A stretch of 63,878 nt of DNA, filler included, from Collodictyon triciliatum (lineage: Eukaryota), in NCBI GenBank assembly GCA_043381765.1. It is 19 parts of 19 records of this genome, joined end to end, with 100 filler letters (N's around TTAATTAATTAA, not from the genome) between each part and the next. Parts side by side here need not be neighbours in the genome. Positions count along the whole stretch, not along the records: positions 12,741 to 15,944 come from JBHJMP010007658.1; 18 more parts are not named here. One strand, 5' to 3'. The translations under genes were made by a program, and so were the position numbers. Positions within the stretch are counted from its first letter, which is position 1, and the number at the start of each line of letters is the position of its first letter. Shown one piece after another: positions 12,447 to 58,500 of this stretch. A model generated the notes under the pieces. That model worked only from the letters and a program-made list of their open reading frames with translations. It ran no database searches and was not told the origin of the DNA.

Positions 12447-13006
12447 TCTGTATGATTTTATTTTTTAATATTGTTCTATGAAAATTAGAATTGAACTCCG
12501 CTTATCAAATCCAAATAAAAAGCTAGCATAAAAAAATAGGGTAAAAAAAGAGAATAAAAAAGAGAATAAAAAAGAGAATAAAAAAGAGAATAAAAAAGAG
12601 AATAAAAAAGAGAATAAAAAAGAGAATAAAAAAGAGAATANNNNNNNNNNNNNNNNNNNNNNNNNNNNNNNNNNNNNNNNNNNNTTAATTAATTAANNNN
12701 NNNNNNNNNNNNNNNNNNNNNNNNNNNNNNNNNNNNNNNNAAAAAAAAAAACAAAAAAACAAAAAAACAAAAAAACAAAAAAACAAAAAAACAAAAAAAC
12801 AAAAAAACAAAAAAACAAAAAGACTTTGTGTGTTTGTTTGCCACAATGCGCACATTTTGAGGGCCTTGGTAGATGCTTAATTTTACATAAATTGATTTTA
12901 TGCAGTTGTTTTTATTAAATCGACCAATTGACTAATTGACTAAAGTTTTACTAAAATTGAAAACTCGGTGGTTTTCTAAAGGAAAAAGTAAAACAAAGAC
13001 TTTCAG

Positions 13007-13221
13007 ATGAAGAAAAGAAAACGTCTTGAGTTTGAGAATCTTAAGTCTGTAAAACCAGACTATCGAAATGTGAAAACATCTCTAAAGTCGATTGTAAAGA
13101 ATCCGGATGACTATTACAAAATCAACGTTACGGTTTTATTGTGTCATAATTTGGTTACCGACACTTACCTGTTTGCGAGATGTTACATATTGAAATCACA
13201 ACTCCCAACAATCGATGAAAT

Positions 13222-13296
<75 letters not shown>

Positions 13297-13516
13297 CCAG
13301 AAATGAGTATGACATGGTGACTTTTTATCTCAATGATTTTCGATTCCTTTTGTCCCGAGAAGAACGCTCTCAGTTGGTTGGACTGTCTCATGTATTACCG
13401 TACTTGGCGAAGCAAATGTTAACAGCTTATCATAACAACATTAAGGAGCATTTTGTAAAGAGGTTACTGCGCTTTATAAATCAAACGGTTCCTAAAGATG
13501 AGAATATTACGGAAGC

Positions 13517-13549
<33 letters not shown>

Positions 13550-15014
13550 AAAAAAAAAAAAAAAAAAAAAAAATAAAAAAAAAAAAAAAAAAGGCAGAGT
13601 CACGAAAATTAAAAAAGCTATCTTCAAGAATCTCGAAATACCGGAACAATATAAAGAATGGGCTAAAACGCATTTGCATGAATCATTCCCAGCGATATTG
13701 TAAATGGTATCGAATATGACTCGAAGTCAATCCAAATAAGTACATTCCATGTCTGATTTACATGAATCCCATTTTTTTGAAGACATTGGAACCAAACCGT
13801 TTCAACCAATCCCTTTAAGAACTAATTATGTACTATGTCATATTACTCTAGATACGGCTTGTTTGATAGGTCTATTAGTATCAACTAGAAAAACGTTTTT
13901 TACTGAATATATCAGGATGCAAAAGACACTATGGGATAAGTTCTTTGAAATGAAGAGGAGGGTCTTTCATCAAACAGACTACAATTTATATACATGATAC
14001 AAACAGACGGCTTGGCGGTGTCATTATCATTTGAAAAGAAAGGTATTTCAAATCCAAAGTCCAAATATAATAAAAAAACCAAGAATATGTTTATATAGAT
14101 GAACTTTCCGAAGAGCAGTTATCTTTATTAGCGAAAAAAATATATAGTTGGAGGGACACATGCAAGTTCAATTTGGTTTACATGGTGGATGAGGCAGGTA
14201 AGGAATTACGTTACATGGCACACCAAAAAAGACATGATAGCAAATCTCTTAAAAATCGAAATAAACTCTTGCACGAGAAAGAAAAGTCGTTGCTTCAGGG
14301 ACATGCATGGCAACAGGTCTACAAAGTGCTGTTTCTTTTGGTCATATGGCTTTTGAAGAGAATCAGCAGTTTGAGACATCAAGAGCATCTTTAATCGATT
14401 TAGACATAATTGAGTAAACATAATTCATGCACGGTCGATTATGAAAAAATTCTCGAGATTATGTATCTATGAAATCAAGATACCAGATAAAATTATCCAG
14501 ATTTTATGAACACGTAACTTTTCGAAAGATGAGATGGAGACATTATGTTAATACAAAAAGAAGTGAACAGTTGTTTATGAACCGAATCGAAAAGACATTT
14601 GGCAAGGATGTTGTACTGACGTAAGGAGACTGGAGCAGAAAATGTCAGATGAAATATTTTATGCCAACAATCGGAAGAGGATTACGAAAAACACTATCCA
14701 AACGTTTTGAACCAGTTAGTGTAGATGAATTAAAAACCTCCAAGATGTGTTGCAACTGCGAAAAAGAACTGGAATATATGAAACTGAAAGGAAATTCAAA
14801 AGAAGCGTATAAATGTCTCATATGTAAAGAATGCAATCGCTCAGAAAGCAAACAAAGTATATTCTTGACAAGGGACTTTAACAGCGCCAATAATATACTC
14901 AAGAAAGTTCCTCCAATCCTTCAAAAAATGCATACACGTTCCTCTAAAAAACAGGCTGTCGGGTCTTTCCTGGCAGCCTTCACCACTACACAATCTTTGG
15001 GAAAAAAGTGGTGA
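13007..15014 (+). pseudogene. Fanzor (eukaryotic TnpB-like RNA-guided endonuclease), Fanzor1-like, disrupted by stops, frameshifts and homopolymer tracts
   Basis: Colinear fragments: YRNVKTSLKSIVK, NNIKEHFVKRLLRFIN, FQPIPLRT..ITLDTACL, IQTDG (about 13997), degenerate RuvC-I IVG..D(TC)KFNLVYMVD (about 14144-14190), *GDWSRKCQMKYFMPTIGRGLR, RuvC-II VDELKTSK, zinc finger CCNC...CKEC, RuvC-III RDFNSANNI. Confidence 0.88.
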
Positions 15015-15075
15015 GACCTTGGATACTAGCGCACCAAGTTTACCAATTGAAAGATTGGTATACTTCTAGTATATT
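14953..15075 (+). ncRNA. Candidate Fanzor omegaRNA scaffold overlapping the 3' end of the ORF
   Basis: Successive stems: 14953-14963/14969-14979 (11 bp, 2 G-U); TCACCACT 14980-14987/AGTGGTGA 15007-15014; CTTGG 15018-15022/CCAAG 15034-15038; TACCAATT-GAAA-GATTGGTA 15041-15060; ATACTAG 15023-15029/CTAGTAT 15066-15072. The position matches known TnpB/Fanzor omegaRNAs. Confidence 0.65.
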
Positions 15076-17676
15076 ATTATTTCAGATCCAAAATAAATCA
15101 ATTATATGGTTGTATGTATACATATAAAGTAAATTCCACAAATATCATACACACAGCAGGAAAACTTGCGTTTCTGGTTTTTGGGAATTACGCTTAGGAA
15201 ACCATGTTCTGAATCTGCTTGCGATGGCGCTTCTTTTTATACCCATATTTTTTGAATATCTGAGTGTATGAATCGTATGTGTTGTGATATATGTAATAGC
15301 AGCGTCTGTTCCATTTTATTCACGTCCTGCTGCAGCTTCCAGTCGAAAGAAACCCAGAAGACAGAAATCAAGACAATATCGTTCTAAGATATTCCACACA
15401 GTTTACGCCCATCGATATCCTCAAGTATTTTTTTCGTGACAATTCTGTGGAAGTAACTAGGCAATGGCTGGTATTTATTCATATATACAACTGCAGTTAA
15501 GCCCAAAAGTTGACAAACAACACGCTACTTAAGCCAAGCAATCGGCCATACAGACAACTATCGATGTGTTCTGATCAAGCCACGTTTCACATTTCGAGGG
15601 TGTGTATGACCTTTGTGACGCACTCGTCTACGCGTTGAACTTCTTTTTTGCACAGCACAAGATTTGAATCAACCAAAGTGAATGAAGACTTTGATAGATG
15701 AGCCTAACCATAGAGAAATTAAAATGAGCCGGTGGTCACCATTTCGCTGAAACTGCAATAACACATATTAGTATATGTTCATATATTATATTTTTTTTTT
15801 GAAAAAAAAGAAGACACAACTTGGAATGCCCCTCTTATTGTCACTAAAATAAAATAAAATAAAATAAAATAAAATAAAATAAAATAAAATAAAATAAAAT
15901 AAAATAAAATAAAATAAAATAAAATAAAATAAAATAAAATAAAANNNNNNNNNNNNNNNNNNNNNNNNNNNNNNNNNNNNNNNNNNNNTTAATTAATTAA
16001 NNNNNNNNNNNNNNNNNNNNNNNNNNNNNNNNNNNNNNNNNNNNTTTTTTTGGTTTTGGTTTTGGTTTTGGTCAGAAATATTTTGAAGCTCTTTTATGAA
16101 GAAAAAAAAAGTACGATTCGGATTCCACGGCAATAAGAACTGAGACGTGAAAGAGAAAGGAAGTAAGAGCGAAAAAAGATAACGAGGCAGAGAGAGAAGA
16201 GAGAAAGAAGGAAAGAGAAGAGAGAAGAGAGAAAGAAGGAAAGAGGGGTGATGAGGAAGAAGACGACGAAAACGAAAACGAAAAAGAAAAGAAAAGAAGG
16301 AAGGCCGCAAGTAAGCTCTACGCTGTGATCCCCACCATCTCTTCCACCCACTTCGCTAGTGAATCGGCCCCATCCAAGTATGTGAATTGCCGCAACAAAC
16401 GCCACAGCCTGCGAGGGCCGAAACACACCCTTGGACAAATCCGCCGAGAGAGCCCGTCGGAGGCAGCAGAAGAGCTCGGCAGCAGAACAAAGGAAAAGAT
16501 ACCGACAGGCAACCAAGAGGCAATCTTTACATCAGAGGTGTTGCGGTGATGAGCAGCATTGAATCACTCCAGCCATGTGATTGCAACTTTGATTTGCAAG
16601 CAGAGGGACAATCACCCAACGATGAATAATTAGGCGATTTTTTTTTTTTTATTCTTCCTTTCAACTTTTGTGCAGGACCGAGGGGTGAATAATTAGGCGA
16701 TGAACTATGGAACCTGTTGAAATGTATCTTTATACTGATGGGAATGAAAAGAAGAGGGGCGATGGAGAAAATGCATATAAAAATGGGCGTAGCAAGTGAG
16801 TAGATTAAATAAAACAAGATATGCAAGTAGTGTCATCGCTTTTATTCACACTGGATGGATTACCCCCAATTTAAATTCAAAACAGAATAAAGTGTGGTTT
16901 AAAGTTTTGACGGTGGATTGTGCTGCAAAATTCTTGGAGTAGGTGTAATATTCCTTAAGACACAGAAACAAGGTGGTATTCACATCTATATGACATTTTT
17001 GATTCGTGTGCGATGATACACGCATATTTTAGGATCGCGTGATTGATATGGAATTTGGGTGATACAAACAAATGTGACAACATCTGAACCGTATGAACTT
17101 CAGTTAGCATGAATAGGAATCGCAGCAGACTCAAATGAAAGGACTTTCAATCATTTGGGTTGGAAAAACACGGCTAAAATCTTGAAAAAATTGCTATATA
17201 CTCGAAAAGAAACCGTCATCATAGGCTGAAATACGAATAAACATAAATGAAACAGTAATTCAGAATAGCTAAAAAAAGGAACAGATTGTTTCCACCGTAA
17301 TAAAAGAACGTCAACCGAAGATGCTCCACTATTTAAATAAATTTTTGTTGGAGCTAATAATATATTCGAGTAATCGGTTTGTTTACTTTTGGCAGAAGAA
17401 AACTCGTATTTAAGGCCAAAAGAATTGTACCAGTGGAAGAAAAATATGCCGAGACAGATTGATAAATATTATGTTATGTCAAAACACGAAGAAACAAATT
17501 GGGTGGTGAAAATCATACTTTTGTTTGCAAATCGTCGATTTTATCTTCGTTTGATTATTGCGTGTGGAAGAAACCACCAATACTACTTGCTTGATTCTGG
17601 CGAAGGACGTGGTTTAGTTCCCGCTTTATTTAGAGACCAAGTTCTTGCCTGGCTGTTGACTTTTTCTGTGTTTAAG

Positions 17677-18278: not shown

Positions 18279-19037
18279 ATGCATGCCATCCTTGCCAGAA
18301 GTCCGGTTGATCTATTCCGTCGGGCCATACCTTTCACACGACAGCTTTCTGCCTCGTAAGCCAGCCCTTGATTTCTCTGCTACACGAAAATGAAAATGAA
18401 AATGAAAATGAAAATGAAAATGAAAATGAAAATGAAAATGGAATAAAACAATATCAAAGGGCTGCCCTCAGCCAGTCCGAGAAACTACTGAAGAAGCTCT
18501 CCGACTCGCAGCCCTTCTTTGTGGTGGCCGGCCCATGCGCCATCGAGTCAGAGGCCATGCTGACCAAAGTGGCCCAGCACCTCTCGGCCGTCTCAGCAGA
18601 GCTGCAAATTGCAGTTGTTCTGAAAGGTAGCTTCGACAAGGCCAATCGAACCGACGGACAAAGCAGCCGTGGCCTGGGTCTCAGCGACGGACTCGACATT
18701 CTTTACCGCGTTGGTCTTCAACACGGCCTTCCGACTCTGACCGATGTCCATGAAGTCCACCAAATCCCGGCCGTGGCTCGTGCTGTGGACATCATCCAGA
18801 TTCCTGCCTTTTTGTGCAGGCAAACAGACCTCATCACCCAGGCCGCAGCCTCTGGGCGCATTATCAACATCAAAAAGGGCCAGTTTGCTTCGCCGCATCA
18901 CATGCATCGGGCGGCTGAGAAGGCGCTGCGTGCGAACGGTGCTGCGTCCAAGACTTTTCTCACAGAGCGCGGCACTTTCTTTGGATACGGCGACTTGGTG
19001 GTCGATGCCCGCAATCTGGTGCGCATGCGCGGCAAAG
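18279..19037 (+). CDS. kdsA: KDO-8-phosphate synthase (2-dehydro-3-deoxyphosphooctonate aldolase), 5' part
   Basis: Exon 1 is 18279-18355. The intron 18356-18459 (GTAAG...AAG, containing a GAAAAT repeat) joins in frame to exon 2, 18460-19037. Motifs: VVAGPCAIES, KGSFDKANRT, LTDVHE, IQIPAFLCRQTDL, NIKKGQF, ERGTFFGYGDLVVD. Confidence 0.93.
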
Positions 19038-22000
19038 GTGATGGTGCCTTGATTGACTTGCTCTCATAGATGGCTCGTCGATTTTATGTCTTGGTTCCTG
19101 CTCCTGCTGTTCTGTTGACTTCCTCTCCATTTATTGGCTACTTTTTTGTTTTTTGTTTTTTTTTTTGTTTTTGTTTTTTTGTTTTTATTTTTTTGTTTTT
19201 ATTTTTTTTGTTTTTATTTTTTTTTTTTTTTTTTTTTTNNNNNNNNNNNNNNNNNNNNNNNNNNNNNNNNNNNNNNNNNNNNTTAATTAATTAANNNNNN
19301 NNNNNNNNNNNNNNNNNNNNNNNNNNNNNNNNNNNNNNTGGAGTTAGATGTGGAGAAAGGTATGGTACTTAGGCGAGCTAGGAGGTTTGGGGGATTGAGA
19401 GATTGTATTCTATGTATTTTATCTTTTTTTTTTTTTTTTTGTGGAGGAAGGGCATATAGAGAGTAGGGTATGTGGTGTATAGGTAGTTGGGGTGTTATTT
19501 TATGGAGAAAGATCACTACTGAAGACGGACACAAGACGGCACATAGGACGACAGAGAGGATGACTAGCGAAGAGTGTAGCAGATCGAAGCAGGTAATGAA
19601 GTGAAGAAAGAAAGCAAGAAACACGGGTACATGACATGGAAGGTAGACAAAAAAAAAAATAGGATGGAAAGCAAATATATGGTAATCGATGTAGATTGAT
19701 GGTAACGTGTGTAGTTTGATGCGGATAGAGTAGAAATGAGAAACTATCAGAATTATGCTAATAAATGCGAATAGATGTGAACTGGTAGGAAATAGCACGC
19801 ATACATCTGGGCAATAATGCGCAAGACAATTAACAGAATATGAATAAAAAAAAAATTAAAATTGCAGGAAATATATTAATAGTATGGCATTACATAATTT
19901 ATGGGAGATACTGATTTTTATTTTCATGTTACTTTTGTTGCATCTAGAATGTTAATTTTTTTTTTTTTTGGTGTTTAAGCGTATAAGGTAGATTCTATTA
20001 ATTCGGATCGGAAGGAGGTTAATTACAACGGCGCTGATATATTTTTAGTGAATAGTTTGCCTCAAGAACTGTAATGCTAATGAATGTGTAGAATTTTATA
20101 TGTCAATAGAAATACTAGACTTGTGTGATTTGTTCTTTTTATATTATTTGTGATAAATTAATCATCATGCAAAATTGTTATAATTCAAAAATCTGGCCGT
20201 GAATAAAGTTGGGGTCTGAGTTATTGGTTGTTGTAGCTTTGTATGTGATGAGATTATTATTGACACCTGTTTAGTGAATAGAAGGGAATCCTTAATTCAG
20301 TTCCTGTTTTGATCTGACGTGTTGCCAAATCCGACTCGTGTCACTTCCACATAACGAAGGCACAACTGTGTTGTTGGACTGTAGAAGAAAGGTAATTTAC
20401 CAAAGTATAAACCCCCATCATATTGCACAAATAGTATGTAATAATTTAAAAAAGAAAAGGTAATTCAAAGGCAACTTTGTTAAAACTAAATAAAGTACGA
20501 ATTGCTTATGCACATGTTATTTATTAAGATATATCGAACGTTTGGGCGGTGTAGGTGCGCTAAATATAAGGATGCGCTTACGAGAAATTAACAAAACAAA
20601 AAGGTATATTTTCATGTAAGTTTTATGTTCAACTTTATTTAACAAGTGCATTTATTATCACTACCATTATTATTTCTTTGATTTACGTGTATCAACAATA
20701 CCATCAATGCGTGAATGTTTTGATACCTCTCTTATAAAGAACGCACTTGGGCTGTCCTATTACTGTTGGCTAATGTAGACCGCGATTACGCTTGCAGTAT
20801 GCAGTGGCTTATTGATATCTCAAAATCTTATTTTGTATCAGTTGTGAATGACTAATTAAATAGAATCGAATAGTTGAATAAATCACGTGTCTCATTATAT
20901 TTTTGTGACGATATGAATATAATACATATAACAGTGTATTTATGGTTTGTGAAATATATTTATTTGTAAAATTCATGCTAAGCATTCGATTATGTTAAAA
21001 TATCCAATATAATGAAAGTGAATATCTAATTTTTGTGCCTGAAGAATGATTTATATTGCTTTATCTACTACGTATTGACCTTAGTGATTGACGGCCTACA
21101 GGAAAATGATAAAGGGCAAGTTTTACTAGAAAGAAAATGTTCATGAAGTCTTGTTTATTGAACCTGTGTTATATTTGATATATTTGTTGATTTTTAAATG
21201 GTTGAGTTCGATTATCTGGTAAATAAAATTTTTGAAGCATTTGAGCGATGAGTTTTTTTTTCCTTTAATGACGACAGCACGATTTAAAATAGTTTTCGAA
21301 TATCCTTGGACACAAGTTAAGCATATGAGCAGCTTACAAACATGCATATAATACTTCCGAGAGTTTTGCTTCATATAGCGTCAGGTCGATAGTTAATGGT
21401 GTATACATACGCAGTGTAGATAAAATTTTGGTGAATTTTTTATTGCAATATTTGGCCCATATATGTGCATGCTTGAGCGGGTATGACTTGATAGTATTAT
21501 GATGGCAAGGTAATATCTTATTGCTATAACAGTGGGTATTTTATGTTATGTTGAGGATATCATGTAATGATTTTTTGAGTCTATTAAAATTTTCTATTTT
21601 TATGTGTTTTTTACAGGAAGACATACTTTAGTATTTTTGTCTTGCTATATCTTTCGATTTATTTGTGTTTCACTATATCATTATTCGATCAATTACTGAT
21701 GATTATAAAGTTAAATACAACTTATTTTGATAAACATATCTTTTTAGTCTAGAGTCAGTTTTTTTTTCTACTGACCATAATCTAATCCACATATCCAAAC
21801 ATAACGAATATGCATCGATACTTAAATGACGACGGACATGATGAGACTATAAGAAATTATTGTAATCGCCTGAGGCATCAAAATAGTCTCACCTAAGTCG
21901 ACGATATTGAATGTGAGAATGGAAGTCATGTACAGTGCTTCTTGAAAATACCAAAGTATTTGGTGAAGACACACTCACCCCAGGTTACCTATTCCTGTTT

Positions 22001-55510: not shown

Positions 55511-58500
55511 ACCCAGACGTTTGTGTCGATGTTCCTTCCGTTCATGAAGCCAATCTGCTCTTTGGATATGAGTTTGTCAGCGATGGGTGATATGCGATTT
55601 CTGAGTAGCGTCGTAAATATCTTGTAGTCATTATTCAACAGCGATATTGGTCGCCAGTCTGCAAGATTGCTTGAGTTTCCTTTCTTTGGTATCAGCCGCA
55701 CCGTGGCCTCTGTAAATCCTTGCGGTAGGTCGTCGTCAGACATGATTCCATTCAGAAAAGTCACCGAGATGCCTTGACCTCATTAAAGAAAGCAGAGTAT
55801 ATTCCGTTGGGCAGCCTATCTGGACTGGTGCCTTTCCGTTGTGCAGCGACTTGGCCGCTTTCCACAATTCGCTTGCATCTATCGGCGCTATCATGCTGGC
55901 TGCTTGCGAGAGCGAAGCCTTGGAGCAGTTTGTAGTGATAAACTCGAGAGTAGCAGCATCATAGTCTTGCCTTGACCACATCTTTGAGAAGAAGTCGTGG
56001 GTGTTCTTTTTGTTGTTGCGAGGTAATAAACGTTGCGAGTCCACAGTGGTGTGCAGGACGGATACATGGCCTTTTCTTTTTCCTTTCCTAGTCCAAAGAA
56101 CCATTTCTCCATCTACTCAAAGTCTAGCAAGTATCTCGCTTCCCATTTTTCACGCTATTTGTGAATATCCGATGTTAGCTGCTCGGCAAGTTTATCCTCC
56201 AAGCTCGCCAGTTTTTCTTTTTGGGTGCGTTTCCACCCCGATGGTCTATCTACTGCTTTCATCAGAGCCTCTTTCTCCCTTTCAAGCTTCTTCCGCTCCT
56301 CTCCATCCTTATTTTTGAACCAGCTCGATTTTTGGATAAGAAGTATAGAAAGCTGTTTTTTTAATACAGGCCATTCCGCCTCGATGGGCGCATCACCTTG
56401 GGTCTTGAAGTGAGCCCTGAGCTTGTTTTGTATGTCTTCTATCGACTTGGAGTTGTTGTATGCCCTCCAGTCTATATACCTCGCCTGCTTTTCACAGCCA
56501 CCGGCTGAATCGATGTGAGCCAGGATAGTACTGTGGTCAGACAGCGCAGAATATAACGTTCTTAGTTTCTTGAACCACGCATGCAAGTCCCTTGAGCAGA
56601 GGAAGCGGTCGATTCTGCTCCACGTGAAGCCGCTATTTGTATGTCTTCTACACGTTGCACCTAGAGAGTGAGGATTGAGCGTCTTCCAAGGGTCTTGCAG
56701 CTTGTGCCTGATTGTCCAGTCGACGAAAGATTTGTTATTGCGTGTCGAGAACCCAGACCACTCGGTGCTGGCATCAATAAGAGCGTTGAAGCCTCCACAG
56801 ATGATGATATGTTTCGCAGACTCCATCTCCTTAGAGATAAGCTCATAGTCGTGTCTTCTAGTATTTAAATCTGCAATTTGGAGCGACATGTATGTTGTCA
56901 TCATACGAGTGTCAGCTCCATCGATTTATGTATCAATACTTGCACAGCGGCTAGGAGTAATCTCCCTGAAGCGAGGATTGAGTTTGACTATCCATTTCTT
57001 GCATAAAAACGCTACACCTGCATGTCTCTGTTGATTATCGTCACAGGACCACATTTGTAGACCTTTCCATATTTCATCATCGGTTAGATTGCTTGGGCTA
57101 AGCACTGTTTCTTGGAGATAGATGATGTCTGCATGCGTGATAAGAGCAGTGATTAGAGCCTCTTTTCTTTTTTGGCCGTTAGTCCCCTGAAGTTCCACGA
57201 CAGAACGTTAAAACACATGAGTAGTCTATTGACTTTCGGAGGCCGTAGCCTCCAGTGATTGGCCCTCTCTGCTGGAGCTGGGTTGCTCAGAGTGGGAGGT
57301 TTACTCGAGTTATCCTTCATTTGGCCGGTGTTATAATTGCTCGCGGTTCGGCCAGATTTTGTTGGACGGTTTTGGGCTTTGGGGTGCAATCCTTTTGTAG
57401 CTGGTGTGTTGGGAGATGCACATTAGTTGGCTCTTAGGAACCATGGATTCTACTTATTATCCCTTGTTGTCCGTGTGATGGGCAGGTCTAACCATGTTTT
57501 CACATCCATTCTGATTTGCTTTCTGGTTCGCTATATTCATTGGCGTATTTGACTGATACACTCCCTTTTCATCAGGTGAGTTTTTATCTTTGTGTTGTTT
57601 CATTATCTCGCAGTGCACTTGTAATGACTGATTGGACAAGAGGTATTTTAGCCTCATCACAGCTTATTGTTCATTTTTGAAGATTTTGGAGCGTTCTTGA
57701 AAATCTGAGATGTAGAGACTACTTTCACAGTCAGGATGTCCTCATAAACAGTGCTTGAGAAGCCATTTGTCGTTTCTGAAGCTTCGAGCCGCTCGCTGTC
57801 TTCTTCAGCAGAACCTTCTAGGAGGGTGACAGGCTGGATGGACTGTTCTTCTTGCATTGCAGAGTCTGGGACGCCGCTTGTTATGGATTGCACAGCATTT
57901 GCTGAAGAAGGAATCTCTTCAATCGACTCAGGAGCCATGTCATCTAAGGTGGTTGGTGGGTGTGGTTTGCTGGTTACCATAATGCTGACTCCCGATTTTG
58001 TTGCCGAGTTGGACTGGGCTTCCCTTTCCTCGATATCATCTTCACAATCCGGTGGTGAGTTTGGTGAGATATCCTCAGTCTGAGGGGATTGGTAATCTTT
58101 GAGGTTGACAAAGTTTTCACCGCTTCTTCGAAAAATTGATTTCAATACAGACACTGCCTCCTCCGTGTTGATTGGCGAACTTGATGAAGCACTTTCAGAC
58201 AAATTGCCTAAGTATTCATCCATTTTTTTCCATATCCATTACTTGATTTTGGGCCCGTCCCTGAAGCTTTTCCTTGATTGAGACTCTGAGCACTTCATCC
58301 AAGAGTGTCTTGTCACGATTTCTCCCTCTGTCGTTAGAAGGCGAAATGCCTTGCTTTTAGCCTTGTTGTTGGACTCAAAGTTAGTTTTGGTAGCGCAATT
58401 AGTGATTACTTTCCCAGTCTTCAGCGTTATAGTCAGCTACTTTTGTGTTGGAGCCCGAGAAGCGAGTGGTGGCGTTTTGTTTGTTAATGTTCACTTGTTT

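What the first reader, a model, noticed from the sequence alone, without database searches (positions are those of the whole stretch)
13007..15014. Fanzor (eukaryotic RNA-guided nuclease) relic in a protist genome
Seen: colinear fragments over about 2 kb with TDG, a frameshifted RuvC-I region, GDWS..MK..PT.G.GLR, VDE..TS..CCNC, CKEC and RDFNSANNI, plus a basic N-terminus (MKKRKR, NLS-like). Known: this split RuvC + zinc-finger layout defines TnpB/Fanzor OMEGA nucleases. Inference: Fanzor1-like, resembling families also seen in giant viruses, which is relevant if the host is an amoeba. No transposase lies in the contig, so it looks non-autonomous. This copy is dead, but it implies a family whose intact or consensus version could be an uncharacterised programmable nuclease.
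Basis: partly seen in the sequence, partly recalled or inferred. Interest (0 to 1): 0.82.

Follow-up and report, generated by a model that had tools for sequence, protein, structure and literature searches.

The report
Dead Fanzor1 nuclease gene copy
This is a broken, decayed copy of a transposon-borne RNA-guided DNA-cutting enzyme gene (Fanzor1), a kind known since 2013, so the call is correct but the find is ordinary.

Summary
Window 13007-15014 (+) carries colinear pieces of one ~650-aa Fanzor1 gene. Its last 189 aa hit solved Fanzor1 structures (E 8.5e-12) and 1,717 database proteins. An intact 648-aa family member, P0160, aligns at 59% identity over 632 residues.

All catalytic and zinc-finger residues survive, but the copy is dead. 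It has about 10 frameshifts, one in-frame TAA, a T59A15 run in place of a conserved block, and a 72-nt A-rich insert.

Added here:
1. 14948-15067 matches a covariance model of the guide-RNA (omegaRNA) scaffold built only from relatives: 25.3 bits, next best in the window 9.1.
2. Public runs hold many diverged copies, and their cover stops at about 15055-15081, the element's right edge.
3. The nearest relatives with known context sit in TA-flanked, 30-bp-TIR IS630/mariner elements on giant-virus contigs.
4. The "contig" is only 3.2 kb (12741-15944), so the missing transposase says nothing.

Fanzor1 in mariner elements of protists and giant viruses is already in print. This is a new member of a known kind, of low to moderate interest.

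The parts
12741..15944 (.). The real contig that holds the finding (3,204 bp), bounded by N44-TTAATTAATTAA-N44 linkers. It starts in an (AAAAAAC)n microsatellite and ends in an A/T-rich one.
   Evidence: N-run table; sequence
13007..15014 (+). Fanzor1 pseudogene, from the ATG to the family's stop TGA at 15012-15014. It is colinear with intact P0160 (648 aa). There are about 10 frameshifts, near 13218, 13310, 13681, 13722, 13778, 13984, 14079, 14291, 14409 and 14459.
   Evidence: Frameshift-aware alignments; tblastn
13007..13024 (+). Basic N-terminus MKKRKR (NLS-like). Relatives share it (MKKRKR in P0160, MKRKK in P0003).
   Evidence: Nuclear import was not tested.
13223..13296 (+). T59 followed by A15. 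It stands where relatives have a conserved block of about 27 aa (..F.Y....G..D.RG.K..) and the frame changes across it.
13521..13592 (+). A-rich 72-nt insert, read in frame as poly-Lys. Other copies of the family lack it.
   Evidence: loose ends at 13602/13611 run straight on without it
14000..14011 (+). QTDG motif. T-D-G is invariant in 18 of 18 clade proteins.
14149..14175 (+). RuvC-I region WRDTCKFNL. The catalytic Asp (14155-14157) is kept, but the invariant Pro and Gly of D-P-G are replaced by Thr and Cys.
14292..14412 (+). Insert of about 40 aa specific to this family (..SLIDLD..). P0160, P0156 and P0006 share it; the P0003-type giant-virus proteins lack it.
14622..14624 (+). In-frame TAA, private to this copy. 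All contigs covering 14624 read T (a Tyr codon): 13 of 13 in X1, 13 of 13 in X2, 6 of 6 in X3.
   Evidence: table 3; relatives have Tyr here
14625..14636 (+). GDWS. Holds the Fanzor1-conserved Gly, at the place of the lost canonical RuvC-II Glu.
   Evidence: PMC3627910 and PMC10530073 (passages)
14721..14759 (+). VDELKTSK with the alternative RuvC-II Glu (14727-14729) and the T-S pair, then the first CxxC of the zinc finger.
14814..14834 (+). CLICKEC, the second Cys pair of the zinc finger.
14868..14897 (+). TRDFNSANNI, RuvC-III with the catalytic Asp (14874-14876).
14948..15067 (+). omegaRNA/fRNA-like scaffold. It overlaps the last 22 codons and runs about 53 nt past the stop. The family's right edge is at about 15055-15081.
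   Evidence: Covariance model R1, built from relatives only: 25.3 bits, E 3.8e-6 on the contig and 7.6e-5 on the whole window, next best 9.1 bits. Fold z-score -5.0 for 14860-15085. Read cover falls to zero from 15082.

Best explanation
Window 13007-15067 (+) is a decayed copy of a Fanzor1 module: the gene for a TnpB-derived, RNA-guided RuvC endonuclease plus the DNA for its guide-RNA scaffold at the transposon's right end. It belongs to a multi-copy DNA-transposon family in a eukaryotic genome. By analogy with characterised Fanzor1 and TnpB systems (inferred, not shown here), an intact copy would work as follows. A transcript running from the gene's 3' end across the right end is bound by the protein. 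The folded scaffold (here 14948-15067) holds the nuclease, and the following roughly 20 nt of flanking sequence act as the guide. The RuvC site (Asp 14155, Glu 14727, Asp 14874, with the C4 zinc finger) cuts matching DNA next to a short target-adjacent motif, probably one ending in the TA of the insertion site. This favours keeping or spreading the element. This particular copy cannot make the protein. It has about 10 frameshifts, one premature TAA, a simple-sequence run replacing a conserved block, and a degraded RuvC-I motif. The closest relatives whose context can be seen are passengers of TA-flanked IS630/Tc1-mariner elements with 30-bp TIRs on giant-virus contigs, some with and some without the transposase.
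For: Family: the C-terminal read-through hits three solved Fanzor1 proteins and nothing else credible. Intact family member P0160 hits the same three at E 2e-28 to 4e-23. A profile of 18 clade proteins hits them at E 8e-78 to 4e-60 over nearly full length, while the next row (LaTranC) has E 0.04. Motifs: all clade-invariant catalytic and zinc residues are present except the P-G of D-P-G. Dead: one search finds 10 frameshifts and 1 stop against P0160. At 6 of the 10 frameshift places, one search lists an indel within 8 nt in a large share of family contigs. The TAA is private (32 of 32 covering contigs read Tyr). The end branch on the tree is 0.43, against 0.03 for P0156 and P0157. Multi-copy: 269, 249 and 83 contig pieces at 80-100% likeness in runs X1, X2 and X3, with up to 17 distinct contigs over one position. 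RNA: model R1 from 6 relatives finds the ORF 3' end in 35 of 45 loci. On 25 of these hits, 36 of 43 pairs show changes on both sides, and 87% of cells are paired against 39-45% with slid partners (that alignment was fitted to the model). The window hit scores 25.3 bits against 9.1 for the next best. Context of relatives: DDE_3+HTH transposase, 30-bp TIRs, TA flanks, and a Fanzor-only 2.27-kb form in L006. Five of 12 IMG/VR rows carry GVMAG names, and L003's 254,533-bp contig is one of them.
Against: Nothing shows an RNA is made or a guide is used, for this copy or its family. The one RNA-library contig (X10) proves no transcription. Nine of the 10 frameshifts behave like single-base losses and five lie at A or T runs, a pattern that sequencing errors can also give. 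The left end, TIRs and target duplication of this family were not found, so the transposon superfamily is inferred from relatives about 50% identical. The RNA model overlaps coding sequence, so part of its score may reflect protein-level homology. The scaffold aligns to the relatives' reading frame in a different frame from the one P0160 uses for its tail, which is unexplained.
Confidence: 0.88

Rival explanations
1. The gene is intact in the organism, and the breaks are assembly or sequencing errors in a low-quality 3.2-kb unplaced contig.
For: Nine of 10 frameshifts act like single-base losses, and five sit at homopolymer runs (13295/13310, 13778, 14076/14079, 14453/14459). The contig carries implausibly long T59 and A-rich runs. 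The contig is one of many short unplaced pieces.
Against: The premature TAA is a substitution. Frameshifts near 13681/13704, 13984/13996, 14291/14306 and 14409 are not at runs. The invariant Pro and Gly of RuvC-I are replaced. Identity to intact P0160 is only 59%, while P0156, P0157 and P0160 are close to each other, and the copy has a tenfold longer end branch. One search lists 40 positions where nearly all family contigs differ from this copy, with 418 more not shown.
Confidence: 0.06
2. The piece is part of an integrated giant-virus fragment (an endogenous viral element) that carried a mariner-Fanzor element. It is not a member of a host transposon family.
For: The nearest relatives with visible context lie on giant-virus-type contigs. 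Bao and Jurka describe such virus-derived Fanzor elements inside eukaryotic assemblies (HMa-1, ESvi; PMC3627910, passages read).
Against: There are many copies with graded divergence (80-100%) in three runs, and cover stops sharply at the element's edge. The 880 nt downstream hold no ORF above 66 aa, and both contig ends are microsatellites, unlike gene-dense viral DNA. P0160-type patterns found no relative in IMG/VR (a narrow search).
Confidence: 0.05
3. It is a prokaryotic TnpB, a Fanzor2/IS607-type gene, or an unrelated zinc-finger protein.
For: The only Pfam hit is the generic Cas12f1-like TNB domain, below its cut-off.
Against: Only Fanzor1 structures are hit by the fragment, by P0160 and by the clade profile. 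No TnpB, Cas12 or Fanzor2 chain reaches E 0.04. The copy has GDWS plus the downstream Glu typical of Fanzor1, and an N-terminal half colinear with Fanzor1.
Confidence: 0.01

Closest known systems
Fanzor1 RNA-guided endonucleases with solved structures: Spizellomyces punctatus (8gkh), Parasitella parasitica (9cf0), Guillardia theta (9cer)
   Same: Full-length sequence homology of the clade profile (E 8e-78 to 4e-60). Same order of TDG, RuvC-I Asp, G-D/N-W-S, downstream Glu, T-S, C4 zinc finger and R-D. Basic N-terminus. A structured RNA at the gene's 3' end that abuts the transposon end.
   Different: This copy is a pseudogene. Its family carries an extra insert of about 40 aa after RuvC-I. Identity to the solved proteins is low: only the C-terminal ~95 aa align by phmmer from the fragment. 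No activity, TAM or RNA has been measured for this family.
Fanzor1-bearing Tc1/mariner elements of giant viruses and protists (PGv-1, PUl-1, Fanzor-only PUl-4, HMa-1; Bao and Jurka 2013, PMC3627910, passages read)
   Same: The relatives nearest to the window's family lie in TA-flanked elements with 30-bp TIRs. They occur with a DDE_3/HTH transposase (L003, L010, L013, L001) or without one (L006), on giant-virus contigs.
   Different: For the window's own family neither TIRs, TA duplication nor a transposase could be seen, because the contig is too short and no left TIR was found. The family is multi-copy in a cellular genome, whereas the published viral elements are mostly single-copy.
TnpB of IS200/IS605 with its omegaRNA
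   Same: Split RuvC plus zinc ribbon. The guide-RNA scaffold is encoded over the gene's 3' end and ends at the element's right end.
   Different: The canonical RuvC-II Glu is replaced (GDWS) and a Glu 34 residues downstream takes its place (rearranged site; PMC10530073, passages read). Other differences are a long N-terminal half, an NLS-like start, eukaryotic or viral hosts, and cut-and-paste TIR carriers in place of TnpA (Y1) elements.
Fanzor2 / IS607-type TnpB
   Same: Same superfamily and presumed mode of action.
   Different: No Fanzor2 or IS607-type chain was hit in the PDB searches. The relatives carry a DDE_3 transposase, not a serine recombinase.

Membership tests
Fanzor1 | C-terminal motif D-X(125,275)-[TS]-[TS]-X-X-[C4 zinc finger]-X(5,50)-RD (Bao and Jurka 2013) | tested here: met
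   Asp 14155-14157, T-S in VDELKTSK, CCNC plus CLICKEC, and R-D in TRDFNSANNI 12 residues after the last Cys. Asp to T-S is about 160 residues in P0003 numbering, plus the ~40-aa insert. The motif is spread over three reading frames because of the frameshifts.
Fanzor1 | Fanzor1-conserved Gly and Glu (G500, E536 of Bao and Jurka), i.e. the rearranged RuvC-II site with an alternative Glu downstream (Jiang et al. 2023) | tested here: met
   GDWS 14625-14636 and the Glu of VDE at 14727-14729, 34 residues apart. Both are invariant in 18 of 18 clade proteins and align to the same residues of 9cf0 and 8gkh. That these are the catalytic positions is taken from the papers (passages read), not measured.
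Fanzor1 | Significant sequence similarity to experimentally characterised Fanzor1, better than to Fanzor2, TnpB or Cas12 | tested here: met
   only Fanzor1 chains are hit. The next best row has E 0.04.
Fanzor1 | Conserved structured non-coding RNA (omegaRNA/fRNA) over the 3' end of the gene, ending at the transposon's right end | tested here: met
   Model R1 from relatives hits 14948-15067 at 25.3 bits, against 9.1 for the next best in 63.9 kb. Covariation in relatives: 36 of 43 pairs. The right edge of the repeat family is at 15055-15081. Expression and guide use were not tested.
Fanzor1 | Open reading frame able to give an active nuclease | tested here: not met
   10 frameshifts, 1 in-frame TAA, a conserved block replaced by T59A15, and D-P-G degraded to D-T-C. 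This copy is a relic. An intact family member exists elsewhere (P0160).
Fanzor1 | N-terminal nuclear localisation signal | tested here: inconclusive
   MKKRKR is present and shared with relatives. No predictor or assay was run.
Tc1/mariner (IS630)-type Fanzor1 element | Terminal inverted repeats, TA target duplication, DDE transposase in cis or supplied in trans | tested here: inconclusive
   Met in relatives L003, L001 and L006. In the window, no left TIR scored above shuffles (30 against 23 +/- 4, max 44) and no transposase relic was found. The contig ends 266 nt upstream of the ATG.
Fanzor subfamily 1c (Jiang et al. 2023: the clade preferentially linked to Mariner/Tc1) | Placement in the published Fanzor1a-d tree | not testable with these tools
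Prokaryotic TnpB (Pfam OrfB_Zn_ribbon / Cas12f1-like_TNB) | Pfam PF07282 above its gathering score | tested here: not met
   E 0.0085, 16.7 bits against a cut-off of 26.3 for the window piece. It is likewise sub-threshold for intact P0003, and nothing was found for P0160.

The most novel reading that the evidence does not exclude
The relic marks a still-active, multi-copy Fanzor1 family of a freshwater eukaryote. This family has been exchanged with giant viruses. Its intact 648-aa form (P0160 type, with a family-specific ~40-aa insert) together with the conserved right-end scaffold would be a working programmable nuclease that has not been characterised. Its high copy number would come from nuclease-assisted spread.
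Probability: 0.3. Interest if true: 0.45.

Novelty: new member of a known kind. Interest (0 to 1): 0.3.

Why it matters
It matters little on its own. The copy is dead, and Fanzor1 genes in mariner-type elements of protists and giant viruses are a documented class. Its use is as a pointer. It leads to an intact 648-aa relative (P0160). It also leads to a covariance model of the guide-RNA scaffold that recognises the 3' end of this Fanzor1 clade in 35 of 45 metagenome loci and in this eukaryotic relic. Together these give the protein-plus-scaffold pair a bench test would need. The finding also adds one more case of closely related Fanzor1 elements in giant viruses and in a cellular genome.

Tried and rejected
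1. Intron reading of 13222-13300. GT..AG ends would rejoin frames 3 and 1. Rejected because a block of about 27 aa conserved in the clade is missing there.

2. Variant genetic code (TAA as sense). Rejected because all three stop codons interrupt the frames and real frame changes are needed.

3. The frameshift at 14943 proposed by the P0003-guided alignment. Rejected for the protein, because P0160, P0156 and P0157 share the frame-1 tail up to the stop at 15012-15014. The frame-2 likeness to the relatives' tail coincides with the RNA-model hit and is left unexplained.

4. Left TIR. The best inverted match of 15015-15110 in 12816-13010 scores 30, against shuffles of 23 +/- 4 with a maximum of 44.

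5. Other copies or a transposase in the window. None found.

6. Whole genome. None is held.

7. Sequencing runs. No run holds half of the stretch's words; the best share was 0.14. X10, an RNA library, gave one 151-nt contig, which is no evidence of expression.

8. Rfam. No family at E<=1 on the contig.

9. A second, broader RNA model.

10. IMG/VR scan with P0160 patterns. No relative found.

11. Host identity. The ESM Atlas look-up of the DAHP/KDO8P-synthase-like ORF at 18311-19069 returned bacterial clusters, which does not help.

12. Earlier notes of this scan for this genome or this sequence. None.

13. The first alignment given to the search for related loci was too diverse. A smaller one worked.
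Full report
**What the window is.** The 63,878-base window is not one stretch of chromosome. It is a chain of pieces of about 3.2 kb, joined by N44-TTAATTAATTAA-N44 linkers. The finding lies in one piece, 12741-15944 (3,204 bp). This piece begins in an (AAAAAAC)n microsatellite and ends in another A/T-rich one.

**Observation.**
- MKKRKR at 13007-13024
- QTDG at 14000-14011
- the RuvC-I stretch WRDTCKFNL at 14149-14175
- GDWS at 14625-14636
- VDELKTSK at 14721-14744
- CCNC at 14748-14759
- CLICKEC at 14814-14834
- TRDFNSANNI at 14868-14897

**Family.** Pfam alone is weak: Cas12f1-like_TNB at E 0.0085, below its cut-off. I read 14445-15014 through its single in-frame TAA as X, giving P0001 of 189 aa.
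- Against all PDB chains, P0001 hits Parasitella parasitica Fanzor1 (E 8.5e-12), Spizellomyces punctatus Fanzor (2.7e-7) and Guillardia theta Fanzor1 (1.2e-5). The two remaining rows are noise at E above 0.5.
- Against 1.84 billion representative proteins it finds 1,717 at E<=1e-3 and 16 at E<=1e-30. Full-length hits are 590-690 aa.
- A word-based search for longer proteins found P0160, an uninterrupted 648-aa protein that is 65% identical over 95% of P0001. P0160 itself hits the three solved Fanzor1 proteins at E 2e-28 to 4e-23.
- A profile of 18 full-length clade members hits the same three at E 8e-78 to 4e-60 over nearly the whole length. The next row (LaTranC) has E 0.04, and no TnpB, Cas12 or Fanzor2 chain appears.

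The published Fanzor/TnpB motif is D-X(125,275)-[TS][TS]-X-X-C4-X(5,50)-RD, with Fanzor1-conserved Gly and Glu (Bao and Jurka 2013, PMC3627910, passages read). It is met residue by residue. The G-D-W-S plus downstream Glu arrangement is the rearranged RuvC-II site described by Jiang et al. 2023 (PMC10530073, passages read).

**State of this copy.** I wrote a protein-to-DNA alignment that allows frame changes.
- Against P0160 it runs from residue 1 to 642 of 648 over 13007-14990, with 373 of 632 aligned residues identical (59%). It needs 10 frame changes (near 13218, 13310, 13681, 13722, 13778, 13984, 14079, 14291, 14409, 14459) and crosses one stop, TAA at 14622.
- With the more distant guide P0003 identity is 255 of 591 (43%), and the breaks fall at similar places.
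- Shorter close relatives P0156 and P0006 confirm the breaks between 14291 and 14459.
- A run of T59 then A15 (13223-13296) stands where the clade has a conserved block of about 27 aa.
- A 72-nt A-rich insert (13521-13592) reads as poly-Lys.
- In RuvC-I the catalytic Asp is kept, but the invariant Pro and Gly next to it are Thr and Cys.
- On a tree of 145 C-terminal segments, the window groups with P0156 and P0157 (support 100). Its end branch is 0.43, against about 0.03 for theirs. Only rows with at least 135 residues aligned to P0001 were kept, so P0006, P0009 and P0057 were left out.

I therefore take the copy as dead.

**Other copies.** No public run holds the stretch as a whole; the best share of its words was 0.14. 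Laying the contigs of four runs on 13600-15300 at 80% likeness gave 269, 249, 83 and 1 pieces for X1, X2, X3 and X10. X1 and X2 are two coded organisms of one study, X3 is a freshwater metagenome, and X10 is a lake RNA library. Likeness ranged from under 90% to over 99%, and up to 17 distinct contigs lay over one position.
- Cover is continuous from 13600, thins in the bin 15025-15081, and is zero from 15082 on in all runs. This places the right edge of the repeated unit some 40-70 nt after the stop codon.
- All 32 contigs over 14624 (13, 13 and 6) read T. This turns the TAA into the Tyr codon that relatives have, so the stop is private to this copy.
- At 6 of the 10 frame-change places, the table lists an indel within 8 nt in a large share of contigs (13679/13681, 13720, 13984, 14071, 14401, 14452). 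Only the 12 best-supported of 101 indels are shown.
- The loose ends at 13602 and 13611 show that other copies lack the A-rich insert.
- P0009 and P0057 are short predicted proteins held by NCBI. They are further copies with frameshifts of their own, 75-80% identical to the window.

**Relatives with context.** A scan of JGI metagenome contigs with a small alignment gave 45 loci that are 34-51% identical to P0001, 44-51% for the 27 best. Many have open frames of 593-642 aa.
- Several lie on large, AT-rich, gene-dense contigs (L003 254 kb, L010 173 kb, L031 272 kb). Their neighbours include ribonucleotide reductase small chain, HSP70 and a fused mRNA capping enzyme.
- The IMG/VR scan returned 12 loci, 5 with names tagged GVMAG. 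By equal contig lengths these include the contigs of L003, L010, L023, L025, L027 and L033. That GVMAG stands for giant-virus metagenome-assembled genome is recalled, not from a call.
- In L003, L010, L013 and L001 the Fanzor gene is part of a ~3.3-kb unit. It has a divergent DDE_3 plus HTH transposase (L003 3318-4358, minus strand), perfect 30-bp inverted ends (L003 3319-3348 and 6601-6630) and TA at both junctions.
- L006 has the same ends around a 2.27-kb Fanzor-only unit.
- The units have higher G+C than their flanks: 0.45 against 0.32 in L003, and 0.41 against 0.28-0.31 in L010.

This is the Fanzor1-in-mariner arrangement described for PGv-1, PUl-4 and HMa-1 (PMC3627910, passages read). 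Earlier reports of this scan describe it many times in giant viruses. On the tree, the window's small clade sits inside a 37-row set (support 96) that contains these loci.

**Guide-RNA scaffold.**
- The last 226 nt up to the right end fold far better than shuffles, both in the window (14860-15085, z -5.0) and in L003 (z -5.9).
- Eight aligned right ends of the L003 group give a consensus structure in which 15 of 52 pairs keep pairing through changes on both sides.
- A covariance model (R1) built from six of them finds the 3' end of the Fanzor ORF, on the coding strand, in 35 of 45 loci at E<=2e-4. Six of the 35 are the model's own sequences and two more are near-copies. Most of the 10 misses are loci cut before the gene's end.
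- On 25 of these hits, 36 of 43 pairs show double changes, and 87% of cells pair, against 39-45% when partners are slid. The caveat is that this alignment was fitted to the model.
- With filters off, R1 hits the window at 14948-15067 (+) over the whole model. The score is 25.3 bits, with E 3.8e-6 on the contig and 7.6e-5 on the whole window. The next best scores are 4.3 and 9.1 bits.
- The hit ends where the read cover ends. Rfam has no matching family.

So the relic still carries a recognisable homologue of the scaffold. In characterised Fanzor and TnpB systems this scaffold binds the nuclease and is followed by the guide (PMC10432273 and PMC10530073, passages read). Whether it is transcribed here is unknown.

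**What could not be settled.**
- The transposon superfamily of the window's own family. No left TIR stands out in the 191 unique bases upstream, and no transposase relic lies anywhere in the window. In the relatives those features would fall beyond this contig's edge.
- The host.
- Whether intact copies exist in the host, as opposed to P0160 on its 2.6-kb contig of unknown origin.
- Why the scaffold region aligns with the relatives' coding frame in frame 2 while the family's own protein tail uses frame 1.

**Verdict.** The feature is a pseudogene copy of a Fanzor1 module, protein gene plus guide-RNA scaffold, from a multi-copy family related to the mariner/IS630-borne Fanzor1 elements of giant viruses. 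The kind has been known since 2013 and was shown to be RNA-guided in 2023. What is new is only this family, its ~40-aa insert and the pointer to an intact relative. The supplements of the cited papers, which list the known Fanzor sets, were closed, so I cannot exclude that this family is already catalogued.

Noticed in passing
window 1-63878: The window is a chain of about 20 short contigs (~3.2 kb each, sorted by falling length). They are joined by N44-TTAATTAATTAA-N44 linkers, and three longer N runs (621, 753 and 559 nt) lie inside pieces. Neighbouring pieces are therefore not neighbours in the genome.
   Followed up: yes
window 18311-19069 (+): An ORF of 252 aa with a DAHP_synth_1 domain (E 3.5e-40). 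Its nearest ESM Atlas clusters are bacterial KDO8P/DAHP synthases, so this may be a bacterial contaminant contig or a transferred gene.
   Followed up: partly
window 56155-56925 (-): An ORF with an endonuclease-reverse transcriptase / exo-endo-phosphatase domain (E 6.6e-6), likely a LINE-type retrotransposon fragment.
   Followed up: no
window 49902-51041 (-): A 379-aa ORF with NHL repeat / six-bladed beta-propeller domains (E 7.7e-14).
   Followed up: no
window 12532-12640, 12741-12815, 15850-15944: Contigs break at long simple repeats: (GAGAATAAAAAA)n, (AAAAAAC)n and an (AAATA)-like array. The genome seems rich in A/T microsatellites, which also invaded the Fanzor relic (T59A15 and the A-rich insert).
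   Followed up: partly
L003 3319-6630; L010, L013, L001; L006 382-2653: TA-flanked IS630/mariner-Fanzor1 elements with 30-bp perfect TIRs on giant-virus contigs. The units have clearly higher G+C than their flanks (0.45 against 0.32). L006 holds a Fanzor-only derivative with the same ends.
   Followed up: yes
L021 2039-4240, L025 1324-3747, L027 2989-4641 (all minus strand): In one AT-rich subgroup, a 550-807-aa zinc-finger protein (DUF4379 treble-clef, E 2.7e-9 in L025) lies between the transposase and the Fanzor gene. It may be a third passenger gene.
   Followed up: no
A5 (25 loci), model R1: The right-end RNA structure of this Fanzor1 clade covaries strongly although much of it lies inside the coding sequence of the protein's tail. 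That stretch is therefore under a double constraint.
   Followed up: partly
P0160-P0164: The database lists a precomputed Pfam family PF26935.1 for all five long relatives. The local Pfam copy does not report it, so its name is unknown to me.
   Followed up: no
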